Shown: one piece after another, positions 1,524-22,327 of the stretch
Position numbering within the stretch: the first letter of the stretch is position 1
Layout of the letters: each line of letters begins with the position of its first letter
Virus record (IMG/VR): IMGVR_UViG_3300045988_059940
Location: 38,650 to 102,649 of that record
Source of the DNA: a virus
Strand: one strand, 5' to 3'
Length of the DNA: 64,000 bases
Translations under genes and position numbers: made by a program
The notes under the pieces: generated by a model
Database searches by the model: none
What the model was told of the DNA's origin: nothing
What the model saw: the letters and a program-made list of their open reading frames with translations, nothing else

Positions 1524-1545
1524 ATATTGTTATAAATTATATTAA

Positions 1546-2664
1546 TTAGTACATACCTGTCAACAGGTCTGTAACTGATTTTTCTTTACTTGTTGCACTC
1601 TGCGAAGTGTGATTTTTAGCAGAGTTTCTTAAAAGTTTTCTAAGTTTCTCAGCAGCAGACGTTTCGCCAGTCTTTTTTGCTGTTGAAACTACGGCATCAC
1701 CTTTCATAGTAAAGTAAGCAGATTCGATTAGGTTCTTTGCTAGATTAGAATCAAAGTCCTTCTGGTATTGTGTATAACCATCTTTATCTGTCTTGAAAAT
1801 ATAATCATACAAAGCTTTGCGGTCTGCTTTTGGGATAGCAATGCCACGAATTGAATCTAAACTATTAATACTATCTGTTACAGATTTCATAAATTGCTGT
1901 TGTTGAGCCTCTTGTTGTCTAGCCAACTCTGCCTGTTGCTTAGCATTTGCTTCTGCTTCATTCTTACGAATTTCTTTAAGCATCTCCAAAGCGTCTTCCG
2001 ACTCTTCGTATAATACGCCAGCATCTTCATATCTAGCAATCTTGTTATTAATCTGTTCATCTGTGTAGCCGTTGTGACGAAGCAAATCACCAATTACAGT
2101 ACGTTGATTGGATTCTGATTCCAAATCAATGTTATCAAGAGTAAGTGCTTGTTTTTGTACTTGATAGAAATCTTCAAACTTACCACCATTCTTTACAAAC
2201 TCATCTAACTTCTATATCCTATCATCTGCATACTGTGGAACTGAGTTCTACTGTACAACATCTGTAAGGTACTTAGTTAGACCATCTACTGTAAGTGGTC
2301 TTTCTTCATCACTAATGTCTGCTATATTCCAACCTAATGATTCAGCAACAGCATCGAACAAAACACCAACTTGTTGTGCCTCAGCAACATCTTCATCAGT
2401 TGGTTCATTTTCATCGACGTCTTGTGTATCTTCTTTATCATCAGATTGTTCTTTGTCAGCAGGCTCTGTGTCTGCTGCTTGATTTATATCATTATCTTCC
2501 TCATCAGGTTCATCGCCTTCTGGTTCTTTAATTTCTGTTACTTCGTCCTCAACCACAATATCTTCATCCAAGTTAGTAGCACTAGTATCTCCTTCTGAAT
2601 TACCGTACATGCTTAACAGGTCATCAAATGTGGATGGATTAGTTTCTTGTTTACGTTTTGCCAT
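1546..2664 (-). CDS. Acidic, coiled-coil head scaffolding-like protein (372 codons, 2 in-frame TAG)
   Basis: Track ORFs 2248..2664 and 1546..2124 share one frame. The only in-frame stops between them are TAG (2248-2250, 2212-2214), and the true stop is TAA at 1546-1548. It has a D/E-rich N-terminal half, a Q/A/E-rich helical segment, and sits just upstream of the capsid gene. Confidence 0.6.
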
Positions 2665-2713
2665 AATTATTAATTAATAATTAAATTATTTGTTTCGCTG
2701 TTTAATCAGCGTA

Positions 2714-3349
2714 TTACCATTCAGTATAATCATAAGGTCGCCTTAGAGTTGTAGGGACACCTTTTTTGGTTTTACCATACAACTAATCACGCATACCTTT
2801 CAATACTTTTTTCATATCTGGAACACCTTTTGTTTTGGCGTTCTTTGGATTTAGCTTCCATTTACTCATTGCAGCATCTATGCTCTTCATGTTAGCCATA
2901 CGATTACTATATGTGTCATATGAAGATTCATAGTATCCTGCGTCTTTTAGTATTCTGGCTGCTTTTCTTGGGTCTGTTTCGTCTAGTACATTATTGTACT
3001 TTTTATCCATTAAGAGATTGTCGCTAATGTAATAGTTAGCAAAGTCTTGTTCGTTTTTAAATTGTTTGTATTGATTAATATTTGGACTAACAATACCTCC
3101 ATAATTGTGTAGATTTCTAGCAATAGGAGATGTACCATTTAATGACTCCAATGCAGTTTGACGCATAGCATTATCTAGCCAATCTAGTTTTCCGACTTCT
3201 TGCAATCTGTCATATAATGCTGGTGCCATCTTTTCAACATATTCATCGTACTAGTCTTTGCCTCCTGCATAATTACGAATATCCCAATAGTTTTCACCAT
3301 TCTTCCAACGGTCAAATCTTTCTTGAAAAGACTTAGTATTATATCTCAT
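2714..3349 (-). CDS. Hypothetical head-module protein (211 codons, 2 in-frame TAG)
   Basis: ATG at 3349 lies 2 nt after the portal TGA. It is in frame with track ORF 2783..3229. TAG occurs at 3251-3253 and 2783-2785, and the terminal stop is TAA at 2714-2716. Confidence 0.6.
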
Positions 3350-3351
3350 AA

Positions 3352-5835
3352 TCAATTCTCCCCAGGAACTTTATTTTTTATAGCCACCTTAGCTTTAAGT
3401 CTTTCACGTTCAAGAGCAGCATCATCTTTTTGCTTTTGTAGCTCCATTTCATGGTTCATGCGCTTCTTTTCCAAGTCAATCTTAGCATCTTCTATTTCAC
3501 GCTTTTGACGTGCTTCATAGCGTTTCTAATAAGCATCTTGGTCAATCTTACGCAGCTGCGTAGCTTCTCTTGCCATCTCTAATGGGTCTGGAATACCGTT
3601 CATATCAATATCCTTATTCTCAGTACCACGATATGTACTAATCTCAGCAACTGCAATCTTAGTTTGATTATCAGCATCAATACGATAGCGTTCAAGGTCC
3701 ATTTCAGCCTCTTTTAGCATAAGTTCTTGTTGCTTAGCTTCATTCTACATTTGTTGTAATTGCATTTGAGCTTGTTGTTCTTGTTGTTGCTGCTGTTGTT
3801 GTAATTGCTCTTGACGAGTTTGCATATCTTGCAGTTTCTGCTTAATGATATTGAAGTTATCACTGGTAAGTAATTCCGCTGCTTCAAGTAAGCTAGCGCC
3901 ATTTTGCATAGCAGGTTGTATAAGCTGTTGAAGTTTTTGTATATTCTCCAAATCCTTAGAAGCATCACTTACAAATACATCCATATCTTCATAATAGAAC
4001 TTCTGTGATATATTTAAGAATGCCCTTTCACCATTATCGAATACATATGAAAGCTTTTGTTTTCCTGAGTCTTGCCAAGCACCTTTGGCTGTATTTAGCA
4101 GCATGTTTAATACTCTGCGCTTACATTGATTGTGTACCCAGAATAAAGGCTCTGTAATATGTGAAGATTGTACAACAGAACGCTCTACATTACCAACAAG
4201 TTCAGATGAACTAATTGCACCTTGACGTTGTTCTGTAATACCAGATATAGTACCTGCAAGCTGTTCAATCTTATCCATTAATTGAATATATTCAGATATG
4301 ACATTACTCATTGTTAAGTCAAGAGCTGTAATCTAATTGAACTGAGCAGGTTTTCCACCTTCTCTCCCTGGCACATTCCAACCTTCGTCATATGGATTAA
4401 TGAAGTTTACACCAACACTCGATAGATAGTGCATCCAACGTTCTGGTGTAATATTCATAGACTTAGGTATCTATGTAATGTCCATATTTACAACCTTACC
4501 TTTATCTCTTGCAATAGCCAACTCCAACCTATACCACAATACAATATACATGTATTGTAGAGGTTTAAGGATACTAACCAAAGACCTGGGCCTACTATTA
4601 GTATTGCTGTATACACAACCACAATATGGAAGCTTTTGTGAATTAGGATTATCAAGACTTACAAATTGATACTCTATTGGTTGTATACCGAAGTATAAGT
4701 CATTTCCTGCTTTATATCCTTCCCAGACCTCTATAATCCAGTCTGGTTCTACTGCTAGTTCTGTACCTACCTTCTTGTATGTCTCATCACATATATTGAT
4801 TTGTGGTTCACCATTTTCGTCCATCGTGGTCACATAGAATATCTTCTTGAAAGATTTCCAGCAACAGTGATATACATCTACATGGTGTTTAGAGTTCATG
4901 TCTCCACCGTCTGAAAGGTCAATAGAACGCATTCTAATGCCCTAGAACGTATCAACACCATCCTTCTCGATGTTATCTACACCAGGTGCACCAGAGAGCA
5001 TCTCATTGAGTTTATTTAGCTCTTTTTCACTAAGTTTATCATAATACCTATCATACACCTCTTGTATAGGTAATTTCATCTTACGAACACACCAAGAACC
5101 ATCTTCTATAAACTCTAAATCTGGACTCTTATCATAATTAAAGTATAAAGGATTTACACGTTCTGCATAAGGGTCACCATTTTGTACACCAACATAATAT
5201 ACTTCTGTACCACTAATTAGACCGTCTTTCCAACCTTTAATAAATTCGTTAGCTAAACCTAGTTTTTCTTTTAAGTACTCCAATGTGTGGTATGCTGTGT
5301 TTTCTATAATATCTTTGTAGTCCTTATCCATATATTTAGCAATAGCTTCTGGTGGCATTATCTCCCCAGATTGCAGTTGTTGTTCAAACTGCTACTGCTC
5401 TTCTGGACTCATTTTTGATTTTATTGATGCCATTATATACTACATCAACATATCCTTTTCTTTGTCTTGCAGCTCTGATACAGCATCCTGTGATGTACGT
5501 ATAACTCTAAAATTCATTGGTCGTTTTGTTTCTTCACCAATTAATAAGTCTATCTTTGGACGTACTATATTAAAGTCCTGTGGAGTAGCAGGAAATCCAT
5601 CATCTACCTTAAATGGATTGGTTATACGTTTAAAGTCGTCCTCATTGAACACACTATTGTATAAATCATAGTATGTTTGCATTTCACTAACATTACTACC
5701 TTTAACTAGTGCTGAATTACTTTTTGATTCGCCTATGATATAATCGACACACTTATGTTGCCAATCCTTATCTTTCTTTGTAAGTGGTAGTTTTTGTTGC
5801 GGAAACGAAGAAGTATGTAAATTACTATCTATCAT
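3352..5835 (-). CDS. Portal protein (827 codons, 7 in-frame TAG)
   Basis: Track ORFs 5440..5835, 4942..5358, 4471..4932, 3745..4311 and 3526..3720 are all in one frame. They are joined by TAG only (5440, 5392, 4942, 4471, 4333, 3745, 3526), with a terminal TGA at 3352-3354. The start lies 5 nt after the TerL stop, and the size and position are typical of a portal. Confidence 0.6.
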
Positions 5836-5839
5836 ATCG

Positions 5840-6480
5840 TTAAAGTGTAAATGTCGGTATGTCGTCCTATTCTGTCACATCGTTGTCCCAGTAATTATTA
5901 CTAAACAATGGCGTTTCAAATAGTTCGACTTGTTTGTTTTTATCTTTATGTGCTTGTGTTTTTATCTGATATAACTCTTCTCTATATATCATTACCATAC
6001 ACAAAGCAATTACTCTATCGACGTTTCTTATTCCGTCATTTTCAATCAGCTCCTCTAATAGAGGTTCGCTGTATATTCGTTCTAAGTTTAGTCGTCCTGG
6101 TTCATATTCATCCATTAACCATTCTAATATTAGACCTTCTCCATACGCTCGTATTGATTTGGTCATATGACAACCTTTTCTTCTTTGTACCTTAGAATCT
6201 TTAAATATCTCTGAGATTACTTTGTCTGGCTAATCAGCCAATAAGTAATCACAGTGTTTATTGGTGAAATAAGGATAAATTCCTTTACGTTCATTTTCAA
6301 ATAATAGTCTAGCATTATAGAACAACAATAACTTTCTTACGTTCTCATAATACTCTTCTGCTGTATCTGGTCTACCAGAATACTCAGCTACTATTACGTC
6401 ATTCCAAGCTTCACCTGCTTGCACGCGTTTAAATATAAATGTAGAGCCTAACGAATTAGTAAAGCTCTCATCGTGGTCAT
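5840..6480 (-). CDS. terL: Terminase large subunit, exon 2 (nuclease domain C-terminal part)
   Basis: This frame continues ...DHDESFTNSLGSTFIFKRVQAGEAWNDVIVAEYSGRPD... through TAG at 6230 and 5867 to TAA at 5840-5842. It joins exon 1 in frame once 6481-6719 is removed. Confidence 0.8.
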
Positions 6481-6719
6481 CAGTTTGTTATCGTACAGCT
6501 TTTTATCTGTACTTCTATATGTTTCCATATAGCCCAGCATACATTATTACTTTGATAGTATCGGGCACTCGTGGCAAGATTATATTTATTCACTTGCTAT
6601 GCGTTACGGTGACCTATAACCTTTCGTAATTTATAGGTTTACCACGGTGTTTCCACATATATTGATTATATAAGGTGTCCTCCGTATTTGCCCGATTTTA
6701 GACCCGCTGACTTACGCGT
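6481..6719 (-). other. Group I self-splicing intron (ORF-less, 239 nt) inside terL
   Basis: P1 pairs exon GACCCGU (6726-6720) with intron GCGGGUC (6707-6701), with a U.G wobble at the splice site. P10 pairs exon 2 UGAC (6479-6476) with GUCA (6711-6708). The intron ends in G (6481). P3 pairs AUCGGGCA (6696-6689) with UGCCCGAU (6567-6560). There is also a GAAA-capped hairpin at 6515-6532 and a hairpin at 6493-6512. Confidence 0.75.
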
Positions 6720-8136
6720 ACGGGTCGCACCCCCCTACATATAATCCATAAGGAGGGTCTTTAACTGGATATTCCCAGATTACAATAGAGCCATGAGGTT
6801 TATCATCTTTTTTTAAATGATATGTTGTAATATCACCAGACTTTTTCTCTGTTGCTACAACATTACCATTCTCAAACCTAAGGTCTACTATATGTTTCAT
6901 ATTCCTAAGCTTTTCGTTTGTTCTAATTCTGGTTAGTTGATTCATCAATAACTTTCTAGGGAATATGTTTTTTCCAAGTTCTAATACAGCTTCTTGTGGT
7001 TTCAAAGGACGTTCTGATACAAATCTGTCAATAGAAGTCTAACTGGCACCACCATCTTTAATAATGTTACGTTGTTTTATTAATTCTTCTATTGCTTTCT
7101 CTTTCATTGAGTTTCCATCTTTGTCCATATATATAGGGTTTCCATTTTCATCAGAACCCTCCATATTAGACCAAGCTGGAACAAAGAACCCACATTTTTT
7201 ATCGGTCTATCCGTCATCCCATATGTTTTCAAATCCTAATACATTAAATGCGTCTGGATTGTAGAATATGTTCTTCAAACCATCAAATGAGCCACCTTCT
7301 GTACCACCTGTTCCAAATAGACACAGAAGACCGAAAGCAACACCATCGTCAGTTTCCACAGCTGGTTGTTCAACACGCCAAGCTGTTTCTAGATTAGGAA
7401 ACTTACCACCTTCTTCAAATAGTACTAATTTACCACGAGTACCACGAAGACGTTCTGGGTCATTCTTCAATGTAATTCCAGTAATGCTTGATAAATAACC
7501 CTGTTCAGTCTATTTACCAAATTCATCGGTTACCTTAAAACCAGCAACACGTTCCATACGAGTACTTGTAAGACGCTGTTTAGACCAGTCTGTATGTTTA
7601 TCCACAAAGTCCATTATCTACCAGGCTTTGGTTAATATACCATCACCGATTAAGAATTTTTGTTCTGATGCTACTGCGAAGTTTTTAGAGCCTGGTATCA
7701 ATTCATAGTTGCGCACTAGCATTGATGCACCTTTAAAACTATATCCTCTCTGCCTACATTTTAATGTAGCCATATGTTTACCTTGCTCTTCCGCTTCTTC
7801 TATTGCATGATAGTAGTAGTAATCGTAATCCCAAAATCTAGGGAAACCAAATATACGCTCACGTCTTGTACGTTTTGCACCATATCTGTCTGTATACTCT
7901 ACTTCTTGCAGTTTCATAATTGGGCTATAATTCAAATAAAAGTAATGATAACCAGTTATAGCATCTCCATCGGGAGCTACATACCCATTTATACATCTGT
8001 CAGTCTCTCTGTCCCAATATGAATTATAGTCAGTAGTACCTCTTGGTGCAAGAGTATAACAACCATGTTCCTAAAAAAATATTGCGGCTTCACGGAATTT
8101 ATCTGAGTTTATCACTCTCTTATTAAAATCAACCAT
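6720..8136 (-). CDS. terL: Terminase large subunit, exon 1 (ATPase plus start of the nuclease domain)
   Basis: The gene starts at ATG 8136. Track ORFs 7618..7935, 7207..7470 and 6712..7005 are in one frame and are joined only by TAG (8071, 7618, 7510, 7207, 7039). The exon ends ...LYVGGCDPY. The two exons together are 2058 nt, or 685 aa. Confidence 0.8.
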
Positions 8137-8138
8137 AA

Positions 8139-8657
8139 TTAATTAGGTATTTCAAATCGACCTATAATACCACCACCTTTAACCTTACCAGATTCCATTT
8201 GTTCAGCTTTTGCTTGTTTCATTGCTATATCTAACGATTTAACAACAGAACTAACATCTTTTAATATTCTGGTTATTTTGAGCGCAGTATCTATGTCCAT
8301 GTTTCCTTCTGAATATTGATTCAGAGTTTCTATCAACCCTTCTGCTGCTGACTGTGAAGAAGCTAGCAATCTGGTACTAGGAGTCTATTGAAACTCCTAG
8401 AACCTTTTTGCTAATTCTTTTACAGATACAGAAGGAATATAATTCTCATCTTTAAATACATCTTTTGCTACAATTGAAGCCCTTTCCTTCTCTGGATACG
8501 CTTCATATGGCGTATTCCATTTATATAACCATACGATGTATTCTATTTCCTTCAACGCCTATTCTTTATCTTTGGCAGTATTGTAATGTTCCTTAAATGG
8601 CGGTACTGCTAAGTCTTCGGTGTTGAGTTTTATTTTACTTCCTTGTATATCAAACAT
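8139..8657 (-). CDS. Hypothetical protein upstream of terL (172 codons, 3 in-frame TAG); its position would fit a small terminase subunit
   Basis: The gene runs from ATG 8657 to TAA 8139-8141, with in-frame TAG at 8559, 8397 and 8385 and no TAA or TGA. It contains track ORF 8139..8369. Confidence 0.55.
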
Positions 8658-8668
8658 ATTTAATTATA

Positions 8669-9898
8669 TTATGCTACTACTGTACCATTGGCGTCAACCC
8701 ATTTGTTATCTTTACCAAACCAGAGCGGTTTATTCTTTACTGTATCAAAGAACATTTGACCAAGTACTGGATTTGCTGGTCTAGTTGCAGCAGGAGTTTG
8801 TGGCAATACATCTTGTACTTTCCTACCATCAGCCAAATACATATCTCCGTTCACCCTAATATCTAATGCATTACTTCTTACTGTATCAGACTATCCATTA
8901 CCTATTGTAAATAACGAAGACTATTTAGCTTGATTTGCATCTTTTACAATAGTACTATAAGAACCATCCCCAACTGTATTTGAAAACGCGCCGAATACAG
9001 CTGCATAATCTACATTAGATTTATTATTATTTCCAGTTATAAACTAAGCGTTTTTGTAAGACTTATTCTTTGCACCAGATATAAAAGACCCATTGGCGTT
9101 TGCGCCTATGTAGTTAGAAAATCCAAATGTTGCTGAATATTTTGTTTTTTCTGCAATATTCTATGTACCAACCGCAATACTATTTGTATAGTTTCCACGA
9201 TTCTCACCAGCAAGTATTGAACATTTACCATCATTGCTAGTTGTAAACATAGAAATAATGCCAGGTTTTGTTAATCCGCATTCTATTGCATTTGTGATTA
9301 TGACCTTATTGTCGGAATTAACATCAAATATTACTTTCTTTAATGTAGATTTTGAAAATTTTTCACCTTCTAGTTTTAATCCGTTGGCGTATTTTCCAAC
9401 AATCATATATACATCGTAAGACTTTAAATATGTATATGACGAACTTGTACTATCATACGCAGTGACCGCGATGTCACCATTTACAGACTTTATTTTAAAT
9501 ATATATGCATTTGCTATTATTAAATTCTGTTCACCTTTATTTAGAATGCCGAATCCGCAAAGTATAGATGTATTGCCCAAAGATGCAATATTATATCCAG
9601 AAATAATATCCGATGGACCAGAATATACATTGTGGTTTGACTTTATTGTAGTTAGTGTTATTGCTGTATTATTTATATTTTCTGTCTTATTGTCTGCGGA
9701 ATAAGATGGCGATATAACACTATCTACTAATGAATTAGATGTTCCACCAACAATATTTAAAGATTTTACTTCATTTGCATCCAATATTGTACCTGGTTCA
9801 AAACCATTTTTTATATCACCCAAAACTATCTATGGTGTAACGGCATACTTTAATCCTCCACCCTAAATAGTTGTACCATTTAATTTTACTGTTTCCAT
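8669..9898 (-). CDS. Tail fibre-like protein (409 codons, 6 in-frame TAG)
   Basis: ATG 9898 overlaps the TAA of the giant gene (TAATG). Track ORFs 9161..9823 and 8669..8854 share its frame. TAG occurs at 9863, 9830, 9161, 9044, 8921 and 8891. The C-terminus reads ...GQMFFDTVKNKPLWFGKDNKWVDANGTVVA. Confidence 0.7.
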
Positions 9899-12800
9899 TA
9901 ATTATAATAGTTTTTAGTTGTATTATTATCTAATAGAGTTTTTGGATTTTCATGTATAGCATTTGCACCATAGTTCATAAATACTTCTCCATACTCTAAT
10001 TTATTATGTCCAGCTGAAACATATCTATTTGGTGTAAATACCTATGCAAACTTAACCTTTCCTGGACTTACAAATAGTGTACTACCACAGAAAGCACCTC
10101 TTATATAAGATAATTGATTAAATCCGTAGAATACGCCACTTATCTATACTGGTTGAGATGAGTTGCCCGTAACATAATGACAATATGCAAATGCAAACCC
10201 TATGTCTCCTAATACAGACTTATTTATATCCTATATAGCAGAAAGATTAGTTCCTAGATACAATGTTATACCATTAAATGTATTTCTAAGAGTTGTTATA
10301 TTAGGACAGTATTTAAACAAGCTCTTTGGTATTGTGTAATTTGTAGTACCGTCTAATAAAGTATATGTAGACAAATATGTACAATTATAAAACATTCCAG
10401 TTATATTTTTTGTATAACCATTAAATGGTAACAATAATACTGGTGGAATACGTCCGAATAATCCGCCTCTATCTTGAACATTATAACCACATCCACAACC
10501 GTAAAATATATTCTATATCTCAGCATCACCATTACAATATCTAAATAAATCTGGTGCGCAACAATAGTTTAGTGTACCACTTAATATAGTATTATCTCTT
10601 GTGATTACAGAAGATACTAAGTTCTCATCGTGTTCATCATCTCCATCATGTACCCCAGTCTTCTTATGTACACCATCATAACTCCACATTATTGTGTTGT
10701 TTACAGTATCAGGTTGAGCTTTCTAGAATTTACCATTTATAAATAATATGTTGTATGGTTGATATGTATGGTTTTGAATTTCCTCTGGACTGTTATTAAC
10801 ATAAGGTTGTATATAATTGTACTAAAATAGATTATTAGTAAAGTTTATCTTTGAGTTTGGTTTCTTTGTAGTAATTGTAGTTTTAAAATATACAACACCT
10901 TCTGGGTTCTATATTACCGTACCATCTTTACTCCACTCTATTGTTTCGCCTGTCTATTTATATTTAAATATATCACCGTTCTTATGTGTTATTGTCACAG
11001 TTGTTGTTGAAACACCATTTGATGTAGATGTTTCTGATTCAATTTTACCATCAACTATTCCATAATATGTCTATGTAACATCCGTTTCACCGTGATATAA
11101 TAACTTATACGGTATATGACTTTTTATCCGCTCTTGATATGAAGAATTTGCAAACAAATAAGATACCTAATTTAATGAAGTACAATTTGCAAACGAGTTC
11201 CCAGTAAGCTTATAATCAAACTTTAAATCTGAGAACAAACCATATACATCGGTTAACTATGGATTGTTTATAAATAAATTACCAGGTAACTCTGGAATAG
11301 ATATTAGATTTTCTGCTGTTGAATTACTGAACAAATATCGTACAACACTTAACTTTTTACAATCTTTAAATATATTTTCTGGAAAACCTCCAACAATACG
11401 CTTTTTATAGCCATATCCAAACATTGTTATATTGTTGATAGTGCTTCTATTATTAAAATGCGTAAGGTTGGTAAAACCTTCAAATAACTGATTTGTAATT
11501 GGGAAATCAACAGATGTTGTACCTTTGCTTAAGCATGCAAATGCAGATATAACTGATACATGTTGTGGATGCTTGAACATATTCTTAAAAGATATGGTTC
11601 CTTTTCCATAACTTGAAATAAAAGCATCAGATACAGAATTTACTGGATTTTCAAAAGTTATTGTATCATAATCTATAAAACATGCGTTAAAGCAACTAGT
11701 ATAATTCTTTGTTAATAAATTCTTGGTAAACATTGTAAGATTTCCTCTATCAGCACCGCCAGTTTTTGATAATTCTAAATCTCCATTGGCGTATTTATTA
11801 TCAAAGTCTACAAATCCTGCATTGTTTACATCTTCAACGATGATTGAATTTTTATGATTAAAAAATCCAGTAAATGAATTTATTTTATAATTCTTAGATG
11901 AATGTCTAAACATAAATCTATCGAACATGCCGTGGAATCCATTTGCCCAACAATCTATATTTGTCAAACTATCTATAAGTGGACTAAACAGACCGTTGTC
12001 TTTCGTAACATTGTTTTCATCGTGTTCTGGTGAGAATATTCTAATGTTTTTATAACATCCCCATAGAATATCACGAATATCCCAAACGCCAGTTGCGAAA
12101 TGATACATATAACGATTTGGACTATTATCCACAGTAGCTGTACGTTCAAAGTTTACCTTTGACTAAAAGAACATACCACGTAAACTCTTCATCTGTCCTA
12201 AGTTTGATAATGCGTAGTATACATCAAATACTGTACATGCGGTTTCTCTAAACATATAATCACACACAGCAGTTCCAAATGTTATATTAGTTACACCATC
12301 ACCACTTTGCCACGGCATCTTCCAATTCAATGGAGGCTGTTTACCTTTACTATCTGGATTAGTTATTTCGTATGGCATAAGAACTCTACCGTCTGTGTCT
12401 ACAACAGATTTGTTCATAAATTTAACAGTAGATACATCTGAACCATGTAGTGAGAATTTATTCAGCAGATAAAACGTTCTTGTTGATGCAATTACTATAT
12501 TACCATATAAACGCTTTAAATTGGCACAGCCTTGGAATTGCTAAGTTAAAGTAATAGGTTTATCTTTATCATTAGCAAACTGTATGTATTCTACTGTACT
12601 ATTTTGGCTAATATTGAATGTTTGTAAACCTGTAAACTTACTAAGATTTAATATATCTTTGCTAGATGGACTTCCTTTTATTGCACTACCGTTCAAGTAT
12701 AAGTTTTCAACGTTAGCTTCATTACAGTTGTCGATAGTAACATAATTCAACTTAGAATTTGAAGATAAATCTATACTGGTAAGTGCTCGCAAATCAGATA

Positions 12801-15800
12801 GTGTAACATAATTTGTATTAGAATCACCAATCAATGCTTGGTTGTTTATTATTCTTACACTATCTAACCTAGGACAGTTTTCAATAGCAATTTGTGTTAA
12901 GTTTACATTATTTGCTATTGTTAAATTAGTAAGATTTTTACAGTTTATAATCTATACCTTTTGTAAGTTATTATAACCAGACAAGTCCAAAGATGTATAA
13001 CCATCGCAATCTTCTATATAAACCGTCTATAAATTGTTACATCCTGTCAAGTCAATCTGTTTTAGATATGGTTGATGTCTCAAATCCAACTCATTTATGT
13101 TAGACCTTTGTATCTATAATGTTTTCAAAGGTACGTTGGTCGGTATGTATATGTTTGTAATACATTTACTACCAGATATATTTATATCAGTAAGTTTAGT
13201 AAACTTTGTAAATGCGTGTGGAGTTTTGCTGTTTTGTTCTATATCTAAAACAAATGTTTTCGTGGGGTCTAAGCACTGTGTATTAGAAAAGTCCATAGTT
13301 CTAATCTAAGACTGTATGTCTTTTCTAAATACATCTAATTTAAAGTCTGGGCTAAAATGTTTGTTGCCACTCAAATCTATTTCATATAATGCTGGGAATC
13401 CTAATGCATCTATTGTATTTTGTGCTTCTGTTGCAGCTAATATAGATACCTACATACTTGATAACTTATTGTTAGCATTACCAAGCTTTATGAAGTTATT
13501 TGAATTAGTAATGTTCCAGTTATATGGACCACCATATTTAATGTTGCCAACGTTTACAAACGTTTCTTTATTGTCCTATAAGAAATAGAAAGCGGTAACT
13601 GTATCGCCAATACTTATCTTTGATATTATTGGACAGTTTGTTGTTACTGGGAATACCTGTTGATTTGTACCCATTATACTGTTACCAGTAGATACATCTG
13701 CATTTGATTTAAATGTAATAGATTGCTGTTGCTTTGCAGTATCGCGCCACTTAAATAAGCTATCTAAGAATATAGTATGCTTCTTCAACCAATTTCTACT
13801 ATGTGCAATCTTACGACCATGTAGCTTAGTCATATCTTTTGTATTACTAATTTGGTCGTTAGTAAATTGTAATAGATATTTTAGCTTATAGTCATAATTA
13901 AATATCAACGAACCACAATCTGATGTTTGCTTATCAAAGTATTCATCAATGAAATAATTCGTAAATGTATCATATCCTTTTGACTTAGCTAAATCTTCTG
14001 TAAACTTTCTAAAATCATACCAATATTTTGTATATAGTGAATTTACATCTTCTCCAAATACTGCCCTACTAAACGATGTGTCTAATGACAACCACAGTTT
14101 GTTTGTATTTGCAGACACTGTTTTTCTAGATATAGCTTCGTCGAAATTAAATGTTTCTGATACATACTACAATCCATTTTGTGCATTTGCAACAGTACCC
14201 TTGTTTGTTAGATACTTAATCCACACATCTGGTGTAATAGACAACTAACCTTGGTTATCACCGCTCATAGAACAGTCTAGGTCATAAAAGTCAGTAAGGT
14301 ATTTGTTTCCATCCCAAGACCTATATGTTGAGTTCTTTCCAAAGTTATCAACTAATCCAAAGAAGTTTGCAATGATGAAGTATTTCATTGCACTTTCTAC
14401 ATTGAATCCTAGGTTCTCAGCACTTACTGCATTGGAATCAATTTCAATATCTTGTTTCTAACCAGTCTTATAATAGTTATTAAAGTTATCAACTGAGTAT
14501 AAATCATAAGACCCTGCAATATAGTTTTTAGAAATCGTACCAATAGAGTCACTACTATAACAGCGTTCTATTGGGAAGCGCATTATGTTCTTTACGAACT
14601 GTACAAATCCTGGGTAATCGCTAACCTATTTATTTGATGGGTATCTAACATCAAACCTACGATTTAAGATTTCTCTATCACTTTGCCAGAAATCACCATT
14701 TGAAGTATTTATACCTTCTGGAAGTGTATCTTTTACATTTGCAAAATCACTTAGAGATACAGTATCTTTAATTTCTATCCAGTTTGCATTTTGTGTATCT
14801 TCCTCTACGTATTTTACTTTATCTTTATAGAATGGGAATGTAGTTACCTCAAATACATTATTACCTTCATCTACGATTTTATTTACTTTCTTAAATCCTA
14901 AGTTTCTATATGCGTTACGACCTAGGTTAAATGAATATATTCCAAGTGGCGTAGTAGATACTTTATTTTGCGCATCTGTGTAGAATTTCATTATTAAGAA
15001 TACAGGGAAACCTTCTACTGTATGTTTAAGTGTAGCTGTCTTTTGCTGCTTCTTAACATAATCAGACTCATATACATTGTCTACTGCTTTTTTATCGAAT
15101 GGGAAATATTCAGATGTACCAATTCTACCAAGTGCACTATTTATAAACGAACCAATAGAAGCATTACTAGCATGAGAGCTGTCTACAACGTCAGCTTTAA
15201 GTGTATATGTCTGTTCAGGAAACCATGTAGATTTTGGTACAAATGCTGTTGTGTCAGGTACAGTTATGTTTACGTTCTTAACTGCGTCTGCTAGCGTTGA
15301 AGTACCTTGTAATTCAATTGTGACACCGTTAATTGTTTTAATACTAGTGTCAATACCTGTCTTATCTTGTTTGTTTATTCCAACTGGGTCCCAGTATTGT
15401 ATAACTTTATTTGTAGTAGCAGTTAGAGTTGTAGATGATGCTGATTGCTGTTTTACAAACTAATCAAATGTCCAAGATGAGTCGTTACTAACATCAATCA
15501 ATACAATAGGTATGCCAATAAATGCAGCCTATTCTTGTATGCTTTTACTATTTAATCTACCATTAGAATCTAGTAAGAAGTCTACATTATAGCCAGTATG
15601 CTCGTTGTATAGGTATGATTTAATACTACCATCAGATTTTCTTTCACAGAAGTTCTTTTTTAATTCTACCTATATTCTTGCATAGTTTGGAGTTCCATTT
15701 ACATAATCAGTTGACACAATATTATTTATACTATCAACCATTATGTCGAACTCATTAAGTGCATATGTATATATATTCATGTTATATATATCTACATCAC

Positions 15801-17697
15801 ACTTATTATATATTACAGACTTTCCATTCTTAATATATTGTCTAGCTCCTAAATATATAGTATCACCAAATACAATTGGAGTTGTTAGATTTCTAATAGC
15901 TGACAATACTCCGTCCAAATACACCTTGACTACATATGATACACTATCCACATATCCAGTTGCTATTTGTGTACGTGTCGTCTACTTCTTACACGTAATT
16001 GTAATATCATTTTCAGTACTATCTTCAAGCTATATTACATTTTCATTATTAATATAAATGTTATGTACATCAATGGATATACCATTAATCATAGCTCCAA
16101 GATTCTAGTCTGCAACAGAAGTATTACCAGAGAATAATATTGTTCTCTCATCATCTGGGTGATAGTCTGCTTTATAATGTATATGAATTGTAAATTCGTC
16201 ACCGCTTGACGATATGATGTCATTAAACTTATATTTTCTAGATTCTAGTGAAATGTCATCAAATTTGGCATATGCACCATTACTAATCCTATAATACTAT
16301 ACAGCAGAATCTAAAATAGATACTCTTGACCTAATATTACTTTCCATTGTTCGCAACACAGAACCTATTTGGAATTGTGATTTATAGTTTGTATTTGTAA
16401 ATTCAAACGTATCATCACCAACGTTCTATGCTCTGGCATGCAATGAGAATATTCTGTTGTTTATAATATTAGATGTGTCTGATAAATATGTAACTGATGA
16501 TTTTATAAACTTAATGTAATATGTCGTAGTTGCTGTCTTCTGTCCAGAAGTAACGGTCACCTTCAACGGTACTGTCTTATTTGCAACAGTCCACGGTTTA
16601 TTATTTACAGATATATAATCACTAACCTACCTACCAAATACACCGTCAGCGTCTTGTCTAACAAGATTTCCATCTATTTCTATATTATACTTATAAGACG
16701 TGTACTGACTTACATATGCTGTAAATACAACATTAACAGAACCATCCATACTAACCTCTGTTGGCTGTCCTTGTACTTTGCTCATTACAGCAGACGATAT
16801 TAGAATTTCTGATGACACCACTGTCATTGTAGATTTAATCGTCTTCTTTACAGATTGTGTTGTTTTGTTCTGTAAAGTACATTCTACAACATAACTATCT
16901 ATGTAATCTTCTGTCTATCCTATCAAGTCACTAAGTACAATAGATTTTAAGAACTAGTCGGTTGTAGCAATTACTAAGTCATACTCTTTTGTAATTGTAT
17001 GTAATCTACCTATGAGCTTAATTGTCAACTTGTAGTTACCGACAACACCTACACTATAATACAACTTTAAAAAAGAAGTATTTAAGCTAGTTAGTGTACT
17101 TTGTATATCTTCACATGACATTTCTATGTTGTTGTCAATAATAACACCAGACCACTGTGCAGAGCCGTATATACCCTTTTCGTCATCTTCATAAGATGCA
17201 GATATATTCAGCTTTCCAGTATGATTTGATAATTGACTTACAACAGTATCATATGGTACAAACAGTATAGGATTTGACGCATTAGCTACTGAACTATATA
17301 TCTATGTACTACCTATACGAGCTATTACATTCCACCCTTTATTGTATTTTACACTTAAATCTGACAGCTTTATCTGTAAACCTCCCTAGTCCATTATTAT
17401 TTGTGAACCAGTTGGTTTATCATTTACAGTAATAGTTGTATTTACTTCTGTATCACCAGGTGTTGCTCCTCCACCTCCACTACCAGAGCCTCCACCTCCA
17501 TGTAGTGCGAGCCATGATATATTTCCTTGTGCGACAGTTAAATCATCTTTTAATCTTTCCATCGCAGTATCAACAGAGATTATATTCTCTCCGTCTTTTA
17601 AGAACTTAGGGTTTGTTGTACCGATACCTTTTGCATCATTACTTGCTACAATATCCCAAGTTCTTTTTGATTCATTATATTTCTTTATGTTATTCAT
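9898..17697 (-). CDS. Giant multidomain tail / receptor-binding protein (2,599 codons, 36 in-frame TAG) with LRR-like repeats
   Basis: Ten track fragments (17386..17697 down to 10231..10434) share one frame. I read every in-frame triplet between them and found 36 TAG and no TAA or TGA before TAA 9898-9900. After the N-terminal domain there is a GGGGSGSGGGG linker. Repeats of the form LxxLDLSGxxNLxxVxIxNC occur around 12.5-13.3 kb. Confidence 0.8.
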
Positions 17698-17708
17698 TGT
17701 AAGAAAGA

Positions 17709-20700
17709 TTATAAGGTGATTGTATATTTGTCCTATGTGGTTATATTATATGCAGATAAATCTTGCGGTAATGATTCTTTCAATGTCATTGCTACTGCTG
17801 ATAGACTATCTAATTGTTTATTCATGTCATACTTTGCAGTATTCTTATCTTCATTCACCGTCCAAACACCTTTTATTTGTTTAGCTGTAATATCTATTTT
17901 ACTATCTGACATTTCATACACTACATACATGGGGTAATGTTGCTTAACATTTTCCTTCGGTGTAACTTCACTAGTCTTAGCTTTAAAATATGCTAACAAC
18001 CAAGGTATTTGATAATCTGGCCCAGACGGCTGTTCTTTGTTTGAAACTAACTTCCAACCAGTTGCCTATGACATAACATATGTTGGTGCATTGATTTTAT
18101 CTACTATTTCAAATCTTGCAAATTGTAACCAATCATTATTTATATCTGATGCCTTTGTTACCTAAATTACTGGTTTTCTAGAAACACCTTCTGTTACTTC
18201 GCCCATAAACTCAACGGCTGTATTTTGCCTGTTATTCTATATATAATCAGCTGGTGCATCATATATTGGTTTACTTATACTATAAGTATGTTTGTGACCA
18301 CCAAATACTAATCGTATACCATACTTCTTAAACAATCTAGAAAACCTATATGTACCATTGTTATTTAGTGTATTTAAGTGTGAACCACTACGTCCTTTTA
18401 CACCATTCATGAAGTCCCAGGTTACGATTGTAAATGGCATTTCATGCATATAACAAAGTGTATTTTTACAGTCAGTTGGATTCTCTACACCATAGTATAT
18501 CTATAAATCTTTCTTTAACCAATCTTCAATTTTAGCGTTCATTGTTTTAGCAAAGGTAGCATCGCCAGAGTTTGTACTAATGTTCCAATCATCTGTATAC
18601 ACTTTACTAGTAGCTACCGCATTTTCTGAATTAATAGATATGAAATGGAATTTCCCATAATTAAACGAATATGTAGAATACATTAAACATTTCTTCCCAT
18701 TCCATGTTAATTCATATTCATTGTTTGGGTCTAGCTCAAATGTAAAGTATTTCAATACATTTACATGGTTATATTTAGATGTAACATCATCACCGTCTGT
18801 TAGTTGTGTAGCATTATGTCCACACAAGTCATTGTTACCAACAGTAAACATTTCAGTTTTATCACCTAAGAACTCGTCTAGTGCTTGATAGTAATCTAAC
18901 CATTCATTCTCCCTATTACCGTTCTAAGTAATATCTCCTGTATTTATCAAGAAGTCTGCGTCTTGTTGGTCTTGTGCTAACATCTTGGCCGATTTACGCC
19001 AAGCCTGGTAATCTATCCAACTGAACCCTTGTTGGTCAGTTTCTTGTACGAATTTAAAAGTTGTTACCTCTGAGTTGTCTTTGACCGTTAACGTCTTAAT
19101 TGTACTATAATATGACTCGTCAAAGTCTCTTCCTATGCGATATTCATATACGCCAGCTTCAAACTATTCACTTAATACTACCTTATGAGTAGTAACCATT
19201 GTACCGCGTACCGTCTTCCAGCGTAATCTTTCATAATGGTCTATGAACTTATTTATAACAGCTGAGTTAGAAGAATCATCTCTTGTTATAGAATATTGTT
19301 TCTTCCATTCAGTTTGTCCTTTTTTACGATATTCTATAAACTCATCGTAATATCCGACAGATACCCAATTGAAGCATCTAGAAGCCTTTTTGTGATTTGC
19401 TGTATCGGAAGTGGCTTGAATACCAAATGTACACCTTATGCAGTTTGGTTTATTCTTATTGAACTCTGTTTTATCTGTAAAGAAGTTTTTACCCTCCCAT
19501 GATGCTTTTGGTGTATATTTCTCTTTCATCTCATCTAGATAGTAATACTGTATACTATTACCTATCTTTGTAGTTTGACGTTTAAGATTTACATATATCC
19601 ATAAGCTTGTAGACTTTCTAGCACCATATGCTTTATTACCCTATTTGGCTGGTTCTAACATAAACCTACGTATAAATAGCGCATCATTCCAAGAATCTCC
19701 TGGCTCTAATAAGAATGTAGTTCCACCTTCACTTAACGAGCCTACACCAAATCCACAGCTATCTATATATCCTTTATTTACCTTTTGTTTATTCCAAGGT
19801 GAAGCTAACTCTCCAACAGCATATAGATTACCATTGGAATCGTACACCCAGTTATCTGTTGGACTACCAACACACAAATAGAAGCTAGAACAAGTTTGGC
19901 TAAACTTTATTAGTTCACCATTTGAGAACCACTCTTGGTCATATGTATTAACATCAATGAATTGAGAGTTATAATCATTACATTTAGCTCCTCGTATTAA
20001 ATATGTAGAGCCTGCTTTTATTACACCACTTAGCGGTAATGTGTGCCACTTGTATCCGTTTGTACCTCCACCATATGGTGTACCATCTGTATAGAGTAGA
20101 TATATACCATTTAAGTTAATATCTTCTGTTGAACCATTTGCAAGCTCTACAAAGTTGTGTGAACACATACAGTCTTCTGAACCTTGTCCACCGCAATATA
20201 CTTCATTTATACAGAGTAGATGATTTATAAATACACCCCAAGACCCATCTGGGTTACCTATACCAGTTGGAGTTTGTATATTCTTATGTATCATAAACTC
20301 GCCAGACTTACTTACTTCTACTTTGTATGTAGATTCACCGTCTGTAAAGTTTAGATACCTTAGTTTCGTAGCATATAAATCTTCTACACTAATTCCACCA
20401 CCAGAACCTCCTGAGCCACCATCTGTTGTGCCTACAAGATTGAACTTCCCATCTTTATATAGAACTAAACGTTTTTTATCTGTATAGAATAGTATTTCAC
20501 CGTCTATTAGGTTTTGTCTATTCTTATTGAAATTAGCTACTGTATCCATCTTTATAGATACATGATTTACAGTAGGTTCTATTCCTTCTGTATTAGGTTT
20601 ATCTTTAACTATACCTGGAATATCTTTTGATTCCTTTGGTTTAAGAGGGTCTGCTGAACGCATGATAATTTCCCTAGCACTAGAATGTGCATCACCAGCT

Positions 20701-21380
20701 ACTACACCGTTGAGTATTATTTTATTTACAACACTCATGTTTTTGTATATTTCAGCGAGTGCTGCTTTTATCTTCTTTAACTCATCAGCATCATTCTATG
20801 TTAGATTTGTAGTATCACGAGTGTCTATCCACAACTTGCTTTTATCCTCTGGTGCAATTTGTCCAACATATATCTACGAACTTGATATTTCTGATAAACC
20901 TGTTGATAACAGACGATATAATACGCCTGTTGTTTTATTATATATTATTTTTGTAGATGCTTCTTTGTAATCATCAGATGACCCATAATTATCAGTGGAT
21001 GCCCACTGTGCATATGCAAAACCTGCCTTTATTGCTAGGAATTTTTTATGTGCGTCACTGTATACTATTTTATCGTAAGTATTTGCTACGTTTACATCAT
21101 CGATAGTATATATTGTCGTATCTATTGAATCTATTGTTAATACGTCAGACTTACGACCATTCTGCTTTATTTTTTTTAATATTTCATCAATGTTTATATC
21201 TGGCTATTGTGCCTATAAACGCTCTACAATACGTTTAATGGAGTTGGCATCAAATATATCCCCATCTTCAAACTAATGGTTATTGATATATTCGCCACGC
21301 TATAACATGATTACTTTTGGAGTCCTAGGTATATCTATGTTATCAATAATCCTAGTACCAAATAGTTTTGTTTTTTTCAT
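17709..21380 (-). CDS. Tail-associated protein with an internal calcineurin-like metallophosphoesterase domain (1,223 codons, 14 in-frame TAG)
   Basis: Translation from ATG 21380 to TAA 17709-17711 is a single frame. Track ORFs 19641..20738, 19164..19529, 18501..18851, 18237..18449 and 17733..17999 are joined by TAG only. Motifs are FVQETDQQG, GDIT(TAG)NG, GNND and GGHKH, with a GGSGGSGGG linker. Confidence 0.7.
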
Positions 21381-21411
21381 GTGCTATAATTAAAAGATTA
21401 TACAAACAAGG

Positions 21412-21440
21412 AAAGGGGACCCCTTATCGGGACCCCCTTT
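21412..21440 (-). terminator. GC-rich hairpin downstream of dut
   Basis: AAAGGGG..CCC-loop-GGG..CCCCTTT forms a symmetric stem. It is the only strongly G+C-rich stretch in this spacer. Confidence 0.4.
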
Positions 21441-22056: not shown

Positions 22057-22082
22057 GTATTATTTTATATTAATTTATATAG

Positions 22083-22170
22083 ACGCCCCAGTAGGAGTCG
22101 AACCTACCCTGTCACCTTCAGAAGATACGCGGTTTTAGAGACCGCCAGTGCCACCGTACACCATAGGGCG
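22083..22170 (-). tRNA. Amber suppressor tRNA, anticodon CUA, class II (long variable arm)
   Basis: Hand fold: CGCCCTA / TG / GTG..CAC D-arm / GCGGT-CTCTAAA-ACCGC / 21-nt variable arm / GTAGG-TTCGACT-CCTAC / TGGGGCG / T73. The anticodon loop is C-U-CUA-A-A. Confidence 0.85.
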
Positions 22171-22327
22171 TTATGACGCTGTTTAAAGACTCACACGTCA
22201 ACGTCTATGAGAAATCGTATTTTTACGTACTAATGGTGAATAATAGCACGGTGCGGAGGTCGTTATAGTCAGACCGCCATGACTTTGTAAAATTATGCCT
22301 AAACAAAATAAAAATATTTTATTATAG

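What the first reader, a model, noticed from the sequence alone, without database searches (positions are those of the whole stretch)
1546..21380. Late genes are saturated with in-frame TAG, so amber is read as a sense codon
Every break between consecutive minus-strand ORF-track fragments is 'cta' on the plus strand, which is TAG. The fragments on either side always stay in the same frame.

I read all in-frame triplets between fragments and found no TAA or TGA until a single terminal stop per gene. TAG counts per gene:
- scaffold-like: 2
- 2714-3349: 2
- portal: 7
- TerL: 7
- 8139-8657: 3
- fibre: 6
- giant protein: 36
- 17709-21380: 14
- right-end gene 62229-64000: 5

That is roughly one TAG per 70-120 codons. 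Reading through TAG restores full-length, sensibly ordered proteins (TerL 685 aa, portal 827 aa). This matches the TAG reassignment (genetic code 15) previously described for crAss-like and other gut phages.
Basis: partly seen in the sequence, partly recalled or inferred. Interest (0 to 1): 0.75.

Follow-up and report, generated by a model that had tools for sequence, protein, structure and literature searches.

The report
Amber codon recoded in crAss-like phage
The virion genes of this crAss-like phage use the stop codon TAG as a glutamine codon, a trick already known in these phages, and the window also holds the phage's own TAG-reading tRNA, whose extra arm copies a glutamine anticodon loop.

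Summary
Ten minus-strand late genes (1546-21380 and 62229-63998) contain 83 in-frame TAG codons and no TAA or TGA in 7138 codons. Reading TAG as sense raises coding density from 59% to 98%.

Codon-level alignments to five related crAss-like phages run straight through the TAG positions. They pair the window's TAGs mostly with CAA or CAG, so glutamine is by far the best fit. This is the TAG-to-Gln recoding (code 15) already described for delta-group Crassvirales, so the recoding itself is not new.

Three refinements:
- TerL is also interrupted by a 239-nt intron-like insert that carries an in-frame TAA.
- The reassignment is not genome-wide. The capsid gene and dUTPase lack TAG, and several plus-strand early genes appear to end at TAG.
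- An amber-suppressor tRNA (CUA anticodon) lies at 22082-22170(-), in a TAG-free unit just upstream of the recoded block.

That tRNA has a long extra arm. In all 57 distinct relatives found in viromes and metagenomes, the loop of this arm is a glutamine anticodon loop (YUG). It matches the real anticodon loop except at the suppressor position. I found no description of this feature in the papers searched. Its function is unknown.

The parts
1546..2664 (-). Scaffold-like late gene with 2 sense TAG codons
   Evidence: Both TAGs align to CAA/CAG in most relatives.
2714..3349 (-). Late gene with 2 sense TAG codons
3352..5835 (-). Portal gene, 827 aa, 7 sense TAG codons
   Evidence: It is 75-84% identical at protein level to the portals of five relatives across all TAGs. 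ORF codons 468 and 514 sit at positions where every one of 117 homologs has Q, with TAG, CAG or CAA codons in the relatives.
6720..8136 (-). TerL exon 1, with 5 sense TAG codons
6481..6719 (-). 239-nt intron-like insert in TerL. The 5' exon ends in U and the insert ends in G. It carries an in-frame TAA.
   Evidence: It is absent from TerL of L004 and L005. Fold z-score is -2.3. Similar DNA lies in unannotated spots in or next to TerL of cr131_1, cr7_1, cr118_1 and Staphylococcus and Clostridium phages. Rfam gives no hit.
5840..6480 (-). TerL exon 2, with 2 sense TAG codons
8139..8657 (-). Late gene with 3 sense TAG codons
8669..9898 (-). Fibre-like late gene with 6 sense TAG codons. TAG makes up 55% of its Gln-type codons.
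9898..17697 (-). Giant late protein (about 2599 aa) with 36 sense TAG codons
17709..21380 (-). Late gene (1223 aa) with 14 sense TAG codons. It is the first gene of the recoded block.
21412..21440 (-). Terminator-like hairpin of 12 base pairs, between the TAG-free tRNA/dUTPase unit and the recoded block
21496..22056 (-). dUTPase gene, TAG-free
   Evidence: Homologs are annotated as dUTPase.
22082..22170 (-). Amber-suppressor tRNA (anticodon CUA), 89 nt. It is a canonical 7/5 cloverleaf with C1-G72 and U73, plus a long extra arm whose loop UUCUGAA imitates a Gln (CUG) anticodon loop.
22327..22400 (-). tRNA-Met next to the suppressor. The same pairing is seen in close relatives.
62229..63998 (-). 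Minus-strand gene at the right end of the window (cut by the window edge), with 5 sense TAG codons
1..1529 (-). Major capsid protein gene (cut by the window edge), 509 codons with no TAG
   Evidence: About 5.9 TAGs are expected at the late-gene rate, so P(0) is about 0.003. The capsid genes of cr131_1 and cr272_1 are also TAG-free.
24936..25406 (+). Plus-strand gene with one sense TAG (25272-25274)
   Evidence: The TAG aligns to Q in the cr272_1 homolog, and the alignment continues for 38 more residues.
42443..43852 (+). Early gene that apparently stops at TAG (43850-43852)
   Evidence: The cr131_1 homolog ends at exactly the aligned position. Read-through would add only 12 codons.
47192..47779 (+). 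Early gene that apparently stops at TAG (47777-47779)
   Evidence: The homolog's C-terminus lies within about 5 residues of the TAG. Read-through would add 14 codons.

Best explanation
This is a crAss-like phage (Crassvirales, Suoliviridae/Oafivirinae) that reads TAG as glutamine in its late virion and packaging genes.

Shown:
- In-frame TAG is the only interruption in these genes.
- Reading it as sense restores full-length, collinear homologs of portal, TerL and the other late proteins.
- Across relatives, TAG exchanges mainly with CAA and CAG.

Inferred mechanism:
- The phage's own tRNA with anticodon CUA (22082-22170, minus strand) is expressed from a TAG-free unit (tRNA-Met, tRNA-CUA, dUTPase).
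- This unit lies immediately upstream of the recoded block and is separated from it by a terminator-like hairpin.
- The tRNA is charged with glutamine, presumably by the host GlnRS, and competes with release factor 1 at UAG.
- Replication and early genes on the plus strand are readable in the standard code, and several seem to end at TAG. The recoding therefore acts as a switch: late proteins can be completed only once the suppressor is present.

The suppressor belongs to a phage-restricted tRNA family. Its body resembles tRNA-Gln (D-arm, and a weak first pair in most members). It carries an added extra arm whose loop is a copy of a Gln anticodon loop.
For: Statistics:
- 83 in-frame TAG against 0 TAA and 0 TGA in 7138 codons.
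- Coding density rises from 59% to 98% when TAG is read as sense.

Amino-acid identity at the codon level. This was needed because the database proteins were themselves called with TAG=Q (searches report 'translates_to_query: no').
- Window TAGs align to CAA 32, CAG 16 and TAG 23.
- 44 of 105 aligned sense residues are Gln. The log-likelihood is -244 for Q against -360 for the next best, K. With one vote per site it is -114 against -145.
- The relatives' own TAGs align to window Gln 63 times out of 130.
- At well-conserved sites the partner is nearly always Q.

Suppressor tRNA:
- The tRNA is found by ARAGORN.
- Covariation supports a cloverleaf plus extra arm: 98.9% of cells paired, 17 of 25 pairs with changes on both sides, 0 of 500 shuffles as good, and 39-47% paired in the slid controls.
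- It sits at the site where cr131_1 and cr272_1 carry their CTA tRNA.
- Its D-arm is nearly identical to cr131_1's tRNA-Gln(UUG).
- In the family, the 1-72 pair is A/U or a mismatch in 47 of 57 distinct members, and G-U in 2 more.

Genome layout:
- A terminator-like hairpin lies at 21412-21440.
- Early genes: 42443-43852 and 47192-47779 end at TAG where their homologs end.

Precedent: PMC7886860, bioRxiv 10.1101/2021.08.26.457843 and PMC9523058.
Against: - There are no protein data for this phage, so the inserted amino acid is inferred.
- More than half of the aligned residues at TAG positions are not Gln. Most of these are at variable sites.
- The tRNA is atypical for tRNA-Gln. It has a long extra arm, C1-G72 and U73. 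Its best Rfam match is tRNA-Sec at 42.9 bits, below the gathering threshold of 47.
- No release factor or aminoacyl-tRNA synthetase was found among 20 plus-strand proteins. About a third of the genome lies outside the window.
- The closest non-identical relative, L004, has no detectable CTA tRNA at the same site. A phage suppressor is therefore not always visible.
- The timing of expression is inferred from gene layout only.
Confidence: 0.88

Rival explanations
1. TAG is a sense codon but encodes an amino acid other than glutamine, such as Ser, Leu or Tyr. The reasoning is that the phage's CUA tRNA has the long extra arm typical of class II tRNAs.
For: - The tRNA is 89 nt with a long extra arm.
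- Its anticodon stem resembles those of tRNA-Ser(NGA).
- Its best Rfam match is tRNA-Sec, below threshold.
- It has C1-G72 and U73, which are not the E. coli Gln identity set.
Against: - Ser, Leu and Tyr together account for only 6 of 105 aligned residues at window TAGs. Gln is favoured by more than 100 log-likelihood units.
- TAGs specific to the window sit at sites where all relatives have CAA or CAG (ORF codon 514 in portal, codon 368 in TerL).
- The D-arm has a 4-bp stem and a short loop, like tRNA-Gln and unlike class II tRNAs.
- Most family members have U1-A72 or A1-U72.
Confidence: 0.05
2. TAG stays mainly a stop codon, and only a small fraction of ribosomes read through it. The host, not this phage tRNA, supplies the decoding activity.
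For: - Early genes seem to use TAG as a real stop.
- Some relatives have no detectable suppressor (PMC7886860).
- Sense TAGs are followed by A in 48% of cases, against 31% for CAA/CAG (p = 0.008). The difference from all codons is not significant (p = 0.15).
Against: - A protein with 36 TAGs could not be made by leaky read-through. Even at 50% read-through per site the yield would be about 1e-11.
- A CUA tRNA is encoded at the head of the recoded block, and its whole family lies in phage contigs. In 19 of the 33 loci of at least 6 kb, the longest ORF grows at least 1.5-fold when TAG is read as sense.
- The tRNA body, with any anticodon, gave no exact match in genomes of 185,579 bacterial and archaeal species.
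Confidence: 0.05
3. The interrupted genes are pseudogenes or assembly or sequencing artefacts of a defective phage.
For: Under code 11 the region looks fragmented.
Against: - Only TAG interrupts the genes, and the frame never shifts.
- TAG positions are partly shared with relatives from independent samples (23 TAG-TAG pairs).
- Near-identical contigs occur in several metagenomes.
Confidence: 0.01

Closest known systems
TAG-to-Gln recoding (genetic code 15) in crAss-like phages, especially the delta group (Suoliviridae). Sources: Yutin et al. 2021 (PMC7886860), Borges et al. (bioRxiv 10.1101/2021.08.26.457843), Peters et al. 2022 (PMC9523058).
   Same: - In-frame TAG is concentrated in late structural and packaging genes.
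- Early genes are compatible with the standard code.
- The phage encodes a CTA tRNA.
- Glutamine is inferred from alignments.
- The same phage family is involved. Relatives cr131_1, cr272_1 and cr113_1 are already annotated this way.
   Different: Nothing essential differs in the recoding itself. The suppressor here is an 89-nt tRNA with an extra arm, not the 73-74-nt form found in cr131_1 and cr272_1.
E. coli supE, a tRNA-Gln(CUG) mutated to CUA and still charged by GlnRS (textbook knowledge; also cited by Borges et al.).
   Same: - The anticodon is CUA, one change away from the Gln anticodon CUG.
- Most of the family has a Gln-like acceptor end (weak 1-72 pair, G2-C71).
   Different: - This family has a long extra arm.
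- The discriminator base varies (U in the window; G or A elsewhere).
- The window's member has C1-G72.
Standard-code 'code change module' placed upstream of recoded lysis genes in TGA-recoded Jade phages (Borges et al.).
   Same: The suppressor tRNA sits in a unit free of the recoded codon, directly upstream of the recoded genes.
   Different: No synthetase or release factor was seen here. The module consists of two tRNAs and a dUTPase.
Class II tRNAs (Ser, Leu, Tyr, Sec) and the non-canonical allo-tRNAs (Mukai et al., PMC5389517).
   Same: They have a long extra arm. Some allo-tRNAs carry nonsense anticodons.
   Different: - This tRNA has a canonical 7/5 acceptor/T arrangement. The register is fixed by the encoded CCA in relatives.
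- Its D-stem has 4 bp.
- The loop of its extra arm is conserved as a Gln anticodon loop. Such conservation is not, to my knowledge, a feature of those tRNAs.

Membership tests
Phage TAG-to-Gln recoding (code 15) | In-frame TAG, but not TAA or TGA, inside conserved phage genes | tested here: met
   83 TAG, 0 TAA and 0 TGA in 7138 codons.
Phage TAG-to-Gln recoding (code 15) | Reading TAG as sense restores full-length ORFs and normal coding density | tested here: met
   Coding density rises from 59% to 98%, and the longest ORF from 365 to 2599 aa.
Phage TAG-to-Gln recoding (code 15) | Homolog alignments pass through TAG and place Gln there | tested here: met
   Codon-level comparison with 5 relatives. 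CAA and CAG dominate, and Q is favoured by more than 100 log-likelihood units.
Phage TAG-to-Gln recoding (code 15) | A suppressor tRNA with anticodon CUA is encoded by the phage (common but not universal) | tested here: met
   The tRNA lies at 22082-22170(-).
Phage TAG-to-Gln recoding (code 15) | Recoding is concentrated in late genes, and early genes are readable in the standard code | tested here: met
   Plus-strand genes stop at TAA 33, TGA 16 and TAG 9 times. At least two of the TAG stops coincide with homolog C-termini. One plus-strand gene has a sense TAG.
Phage TAG-to-Gln recoding (code 15) | Peptides spanning TAG positions carry Gln | not testable with these tools
   No proteomic data were available. 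This has been shown for two other crAss-like phages (PMC9523058).
Crassvirales, Suoliviridae/Oafivirinae | Portal, TerL and capsid genes are homologous and in the same order as in classified members | tested here: met
   75-77% nucleotide identity to Bohxovirus, cr131_1, cr272_1 and cr273_1 over portal-TerL. 75-86% protein identity to five relatives with the same gene order.
tRNA-Gln (E. coli identity set, from memory: YUG anticodon, weak U1-A72 pair, G2-C71, G3-C70, G10, G73, class I variable loop) | Weak 1-72 pair and G73 | tested here: not met
   The window tRNA has C1-G72 and U73. In the family, 47 of 57 distinct members have an A/U pair or a mismatch at 1-72, and the discriminator varies among G, U and A.
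tRNA-Gln (E. coli identity set) | G2-C71 and G10, with a Gln-type D-arm | tested here: met
   G2-C71 and G10 are present. The D-arm UGGUGUA..GCACU matches cr131_1's tRNA-Gln(UUG).
tRNA-Gln (E. coli identity set) | Short (class I) variable loop | tested here: not met
   The variable region is 21 nt and forms a hairpin supported by covariation.
tRNA-Sec or allo-tRNA | An acceptor/T-stem arrangement of 8/5, 8/4 or 9/3, and a 6-bp D-stem | tested here: not met
   Relatives encode the discriminator base followed by CCA directly after a 7-bp acceptor stem. The D-stem has 4 bp. Rfam tRNA-Sec scores 42.9 bits, below the threshold of 47.
Group I intron (the TerL insert) | The 5' exon ends in U, the intron ends in G, and there is a conserved catalytic core | tested here: inconclusive
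   The U and G boundaries are met, and the insert is absent from the TerL genes of L004 and L005. Homologous DNA lies in or beside TerL of many phages. Rfam gives no match at E<=1.

The most novel reading that the evidence does not exclude
The extra arm of this amber-suppressor tRNA may be a functional copy of a glutamine anticodon stem-loop.

What the sequences show:
- In all 57 distinct family members, the loop of the extra arm is C/U-U-YUG-A-A/G. This is the tRNA's own anticodon loop (CUCUAAA) with G restored at position 36.
- The stem of the arm varies in length and sequence, and its pairs change together.

The reading: changing the anticodon to CUA removes a base that GlnRS uses for recognition. 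The second arm restores a glutamine identity signal, or it recruits or decoys another factor that reads the tRNA-Gln anticodon loop. One arm would decode UAG while the other marks the tRNA as a glutamine tRNA.

This would be a new way to uncouple tRNA identity from decoding, and it would explain why phages converge on Gln for TAG.
Probability: 0.25. Interest if true: 0.8.

Novelty: new member of a known kind. Interest (0 to 1): 0.4.

Why it matters
The recoding itself matters mainly for annotation. Under code 11, about 40% of the late region is lost and every large virion gene is broken. Genomes like this one need code 15, and because early genes seem to stop at TAG, they really need mixed-code calling.

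The suppressor tRNA is the less routine part. It belongs to a family found here only in viral and metagenome contigs. Its body, with any anticodon, gave no exact match in genomes of 185,579 species. It is shared by about 100-kb crAss-like phages and by contigs of up to 193 kb that carry large tRNA arrays. Its extra arm imitates a glutamine anticodon loop.

If that arm is an identity or recruitment signal, three things follow:
- It would give a direct, testable answer to an open question: how phage suppressors are charged with glutamine in a standard-code host.
- It would offer a natural design for engineering suppressor tRNAs.
- It may help explain why tRNA finders miss the suppressor in many recoded phages.

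Tried and rejected
- Protein-level check of TAG positions against database homologs. This turned out to be circular, because those proteins were called with TAG=Q. I replaced it with codon-level analysis.
- tRNA-Sec or an 8/5 fold for the suppressor. Rejected because relatives encode CCA directly after a 7-bp acceptor stem plus the discriminator base.
- Origin from a cellular tRNA. The family's D-arm plus anticodon arm, with any anticodon, found nothing in genome contigs. In IMG/VR it found only the same 10 CTA loci. Searches were wasted on a pattern with one A too many.
- An analogous design for opal suppressors (UCA anticodon plus an extra-arm loop with the Trp anticodon CCA). The 15 IMG/VR matches were all chance hits in coding DNA, and none was a tRNA.
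- Release factor or synthetase genes. None was found among 20 plus-strand proteins.
- Rfam searches on the TerL insert and on the 2.2-kb ORF-free region found nothing.
- A pseudoknot between the extra-arm loop (CUG) and the 3' linker (CAG or CGG) as the reason for loop conservation. It is possible in most members but not in L055, L088 or L066, and it would not explain the conserved U before the triplet or the A after it. This is unresolved.
- An alternative fold in which the extra arm takes the anticodon arm's place during charging. This is unlikely, because the extra-arm stem is only 2-4 bp in many members.
- The +4 nucleotide context of sense TAGs gave only a weak signal.
- The Bohxovirus 'endotrachealis' record stays fragmented even with TAG as sense. 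I did not pursue this.

Full report
**1. Observation**

I scanned the window stop-to-stop with TAG treated as sense and translated the minus-strand genes.
- Ten late genes (1546-21380 and 62229-63998) carry 83 in-frame TAG, 0 TAA and 0 TGA in 7138 codons.
- In the other two frames of the same DNA the counts are TAG 380, TAA 689 and TGA 426. The chance that all 83 interruptions are TAG is about 4e-50.
- On the minus strand of 1546-21389, ORFs of at least 60 aa cover 59% of the sequence under code 11 (33 ORFs, median 99 aa). With TAG as sense they cover 98% (17 ORFs, up to 2599 aa). With TGA as sense they cover 61%.

There is one exception to "a single terminal stop per gene". TerL is split into 6720-8136 and 5840-6480 by a 239-nt insert (6481-6719).
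- The insert begins with an in-frame TAA and changes the frame.
- It is absent from TerL of relatives L004 and L005.
- It follows a U and ends in G.
- Its fold z-score is -2.3.
- Similar DNA occurs in unannotated spots in or beside TerL of cr131_1, cr7_1, cr118_1 and Staphylococcus and Clostridium phages.
- Rfam does not recognise it.

It looks like a small mobile group I-type intron. The 685-aa TerL requires its removal.

**2. What the window is**

Megablast places the portal-TerL region at 75-77% identity to Bohxovirus sp., cr131_1, cr272_1 and cr273_1. These are Crassvirales, Suoliviridae, Oafivirinae. cr131_1 and cr272_1 also have in-frame TAGs in their annotated late genes. Each carries a 73-74-nt tRNA with anticodon CTA, labelled tRNA-Gln, next to dUTPase.

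**3. Which amino acid**

A search with the portal returned full-length homologs with Q at the TAG positions. Their encoding contigs do not translate to those proteins under code 11. They were therefore called with TAG=Q, and that evidence is circular.

I compared codons instead. Over five relatives, the window's TAGs align to CAA 32, CAG 16, TAG 23, AAT 11, GAA 8 and scattered others.

I also built substitution frequencies from the same alignments.
- The 105 aligned sense residues (44 of them Gln) give a log-likelihood of -244 for Gln and -360 for the runner-up, Lys.
- With one vote per site the figures are -114 against -145.
- In the other direction, the relatives' TAGs align to window Gln 63 times out of 130.
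- CAA, which is two mutations from TAG, outnumbers CAG. The signal is therefore functional equivalence and not mutational proximity.
- Ser, Leu and Tyr together account for 6 of 105 residues.

**4. Scope of the recoding**
- The capsid gene (509 codons in the window) and dUTPase have no TAG. For the capsid gene, P is about 0.003 at the late-gene rate. The capsid genes of cr131_1 and cr272_1 are also TAG-free.
- The TAG share of Gln-type codons ranges from 8% (scaffold-like gene) to 55% (fibre-like gene).
- On the plus strand, 58 ORFs stop at TAA (33), TGA (16) or TAG (9).
- 42443-43852 ends at TAG exactly where the cr131_1 homolog ends.
- 47192-47779 ends at TAG within a few residues of its homolog's end.
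- 24936-25406 has an internal TAG aligned to Q in cr272_1, and the alignment continues for 38 residues.
- TAG is thus a sense codon in late genes and in a few others, and apparently a stop in several early genes. This matches published descriptions.
- Twenty plus-strand proteins include a sigma factor, DnaB, primase, ATPases, a PD-(D/E)XK nuclease and an HNH endonuclease. None is a release factor or a synthetase.

**5. The decoder**

ARAGORN finds a tRNA with anticodon CTA at 22082-22170(-), 89 nt, with a long extra arm. On the minus strand, in the direction of transcription, the order is:
- tRNA-Met
- a conserved 110-nt spacer
- tRNA-CTA
- dUTPase (TAG-free)
- a 12-bp terminator-like hairpin at 21412-21440
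- the first recoded gene

Rfam's best match is tRNA-Sec, below threshold. However, relatives encode CCA right after a 7-bp acceptor stem plus the discriminator base. This fixes a normal 7/5 cloverleaf.

A pattern covering the anticodon arm and T-loop, with the variable region left free, found 10 IMG/VR loci and 97 metagenome stretches, of which 80 were returned. A covariance model built from the first set identified 73 members, 57 of them distinct.

The cloverleaf plus extra arm is strongly supported:
- 98.9% of cells are paired.
- 17 of 25 pairs have changes on both sides.
- 0 of 500 shuffles are as good.
- 39-47% are paired when the partners are slid.

Other properties of the family:
- It occurs in about 100-kb crAss-like contigs. 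These include RefSeq cr113_1, where the gene is annotated as tRNA-Gln.
- It also occurs in contigs of up to 193 kb with large tRNA arrays.
- In 19 of the 33 loci of at least 6 kb, the longest ORF grows at least 1.5-fold with TAG as sense. With TGA as sense this happens in 4.
- The body, with any anticodon, gave no exact match in genomes of 185,579 species.
- The D-arm matches cr131_1's tRNA-Gln(UUG).
- The 1-72 pair is UA in 29, AU in 12, a mismatch in 6, GU in 2 and CG in 8 members. A weak first pair is the hallmark of tRNA-Gln in E. coli (from memory).
- The window's copy has C1-G72 and U73.

**6. An unexpected feature**

The loop of the extra arm is not free to vary. All 57 distinct members contain YUG, the two glutamine anticodons. 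CUG occurs in about 50 and UUG in about 7. The commonest seven-nucleotide loops are:
- CUCUGAA: 24
- UUCUGAG: 14
- UUCUGAA: 5
- CUUUGAA: 3

The real anticodon loop is CUCUAAA. The commonest extra-arm loop is therefore the same loop with G in place of A at position 36, which is the wild-type Gln loop.
- The positions equivalent to 32 and 38 are C·A, U·G or U-A, and never C-G, as in true anticodon loops.
- The arm's stem varies in length (2-4 bp) and in sequence: UAUC/GGUG, GC/GC, UGGC/GCCG, GCC/GGC, UGUC/GACG and UUCC/GGAG.
- The search patterns did not specify this loop. About a dozen other long-arm CTA tRNAs hit by the same pattern lack it.
- Full-text searches, and a reading of the main papers on phage recoding, found no mention of it.

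What the arm does is unknown. The reading I favour is a glutamine identity or recruitment signal that compensates for the changed anticodon. I rate it at about one in four. The rival readings are a loop-linker pseudoknot, a decoy for some factor that reads the tRNA-Gln anticodon loop, or a structural relic. A matching design for opal suppressors was not found.

**7. Verdict**

The finding is real and correctly interpreted. The recoding is a known property of this phage family, so the overall novelty is low. The added value lies in three points: the precise scope of the recoding, the TerL insert, and the suppressor tRNA's anticodon-like extra arm.

Noticed in passing
window 6481-6719 (-): A 239-nt intron-like insert in TerL. 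The preceding exon base is U, the insert's last base is G, and it carries an in-frame TAA. It is absent from two relatives' TerL genes. Similar DNA lies in or next to TerL in many unrelated phages.
   Followed up: partly
window 44334-46575 (+), core about 44819-45087: A 2.2-kb stretch with no ORF longer than 158 codons under any single stop reassignment. The syntenic stretches in cr131_1 and cr272_1 have no annotation either. A 270-nt patch is 71-78% identical across the three phages. Its predicted consensus structure has 65 pairs, 21 of them with compensatory changes. Rfam gives no match. It is probably an undescribed structured RNA.
   Followed up: partly
window 57180-57461 (+): A tmRNA gene (Rfam 95 bits) among the replication genes. 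cr131_1 also has an annotated tmRNA.
   Followed up: no
window 33774-33855 (+): A RAGATH-12 RNA motif at 89 bits, above the gathering score.
   Followed up: no
window about 22175-22290 (-): A conserved non-coding element of about 110 nt between tRNA-Met and the suppressor tRNA. It is shared with relative L004, although L004 has no detectable CTA tRNA at that site.
   Followed up: no
window 1-1529 (-) and 21496-22056 (-): The major capsid gene and dUTPase contain no TAG, although they lie beside heavily recoded genes. The capsid genes of cr131_1 and cr272_1 are also TAG-free. This suggests TAG is avoided in the most highly expressed gene, or in genes expressed early.
   Followed up: partly
L002 (PV686213.1, Bohxovirus sp. 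'endotrachealis'): This GenBank relative is annotated with code 11 as dozens of short hypothetical proteins. It stays fragmented even with TAG as sense (the longest portal piece is 328 codons). This suggests frameshift errors or a further peculiarity.
   Followed up: no
window late genes, nucleotide after each sense TAG: Sense TAGs are followed by A in 48% of cases and by C in 7%. For CAA/CAG the figures are 31% and 22% (p = 0.008). The difference from all codons is not significant.
   Followed up: partly
window 60078-60629 (+): An HNH/NUMOD homing-endonuclease gene among the replication genes. It is consistent with the mobile-element load seen in crAss-like phages.
   Followed up: no
L020 (NC_055896.1 94123-94213): RefSeq cr113_1 annotates a 91-nt member of the same extra-arm tRNA family as tRNA-Gln. 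It has C1-G72, A73 and an encoded CCA. The gene is therefore already in public records, although its unusual arm is not remarked on.
   Followed up: yes
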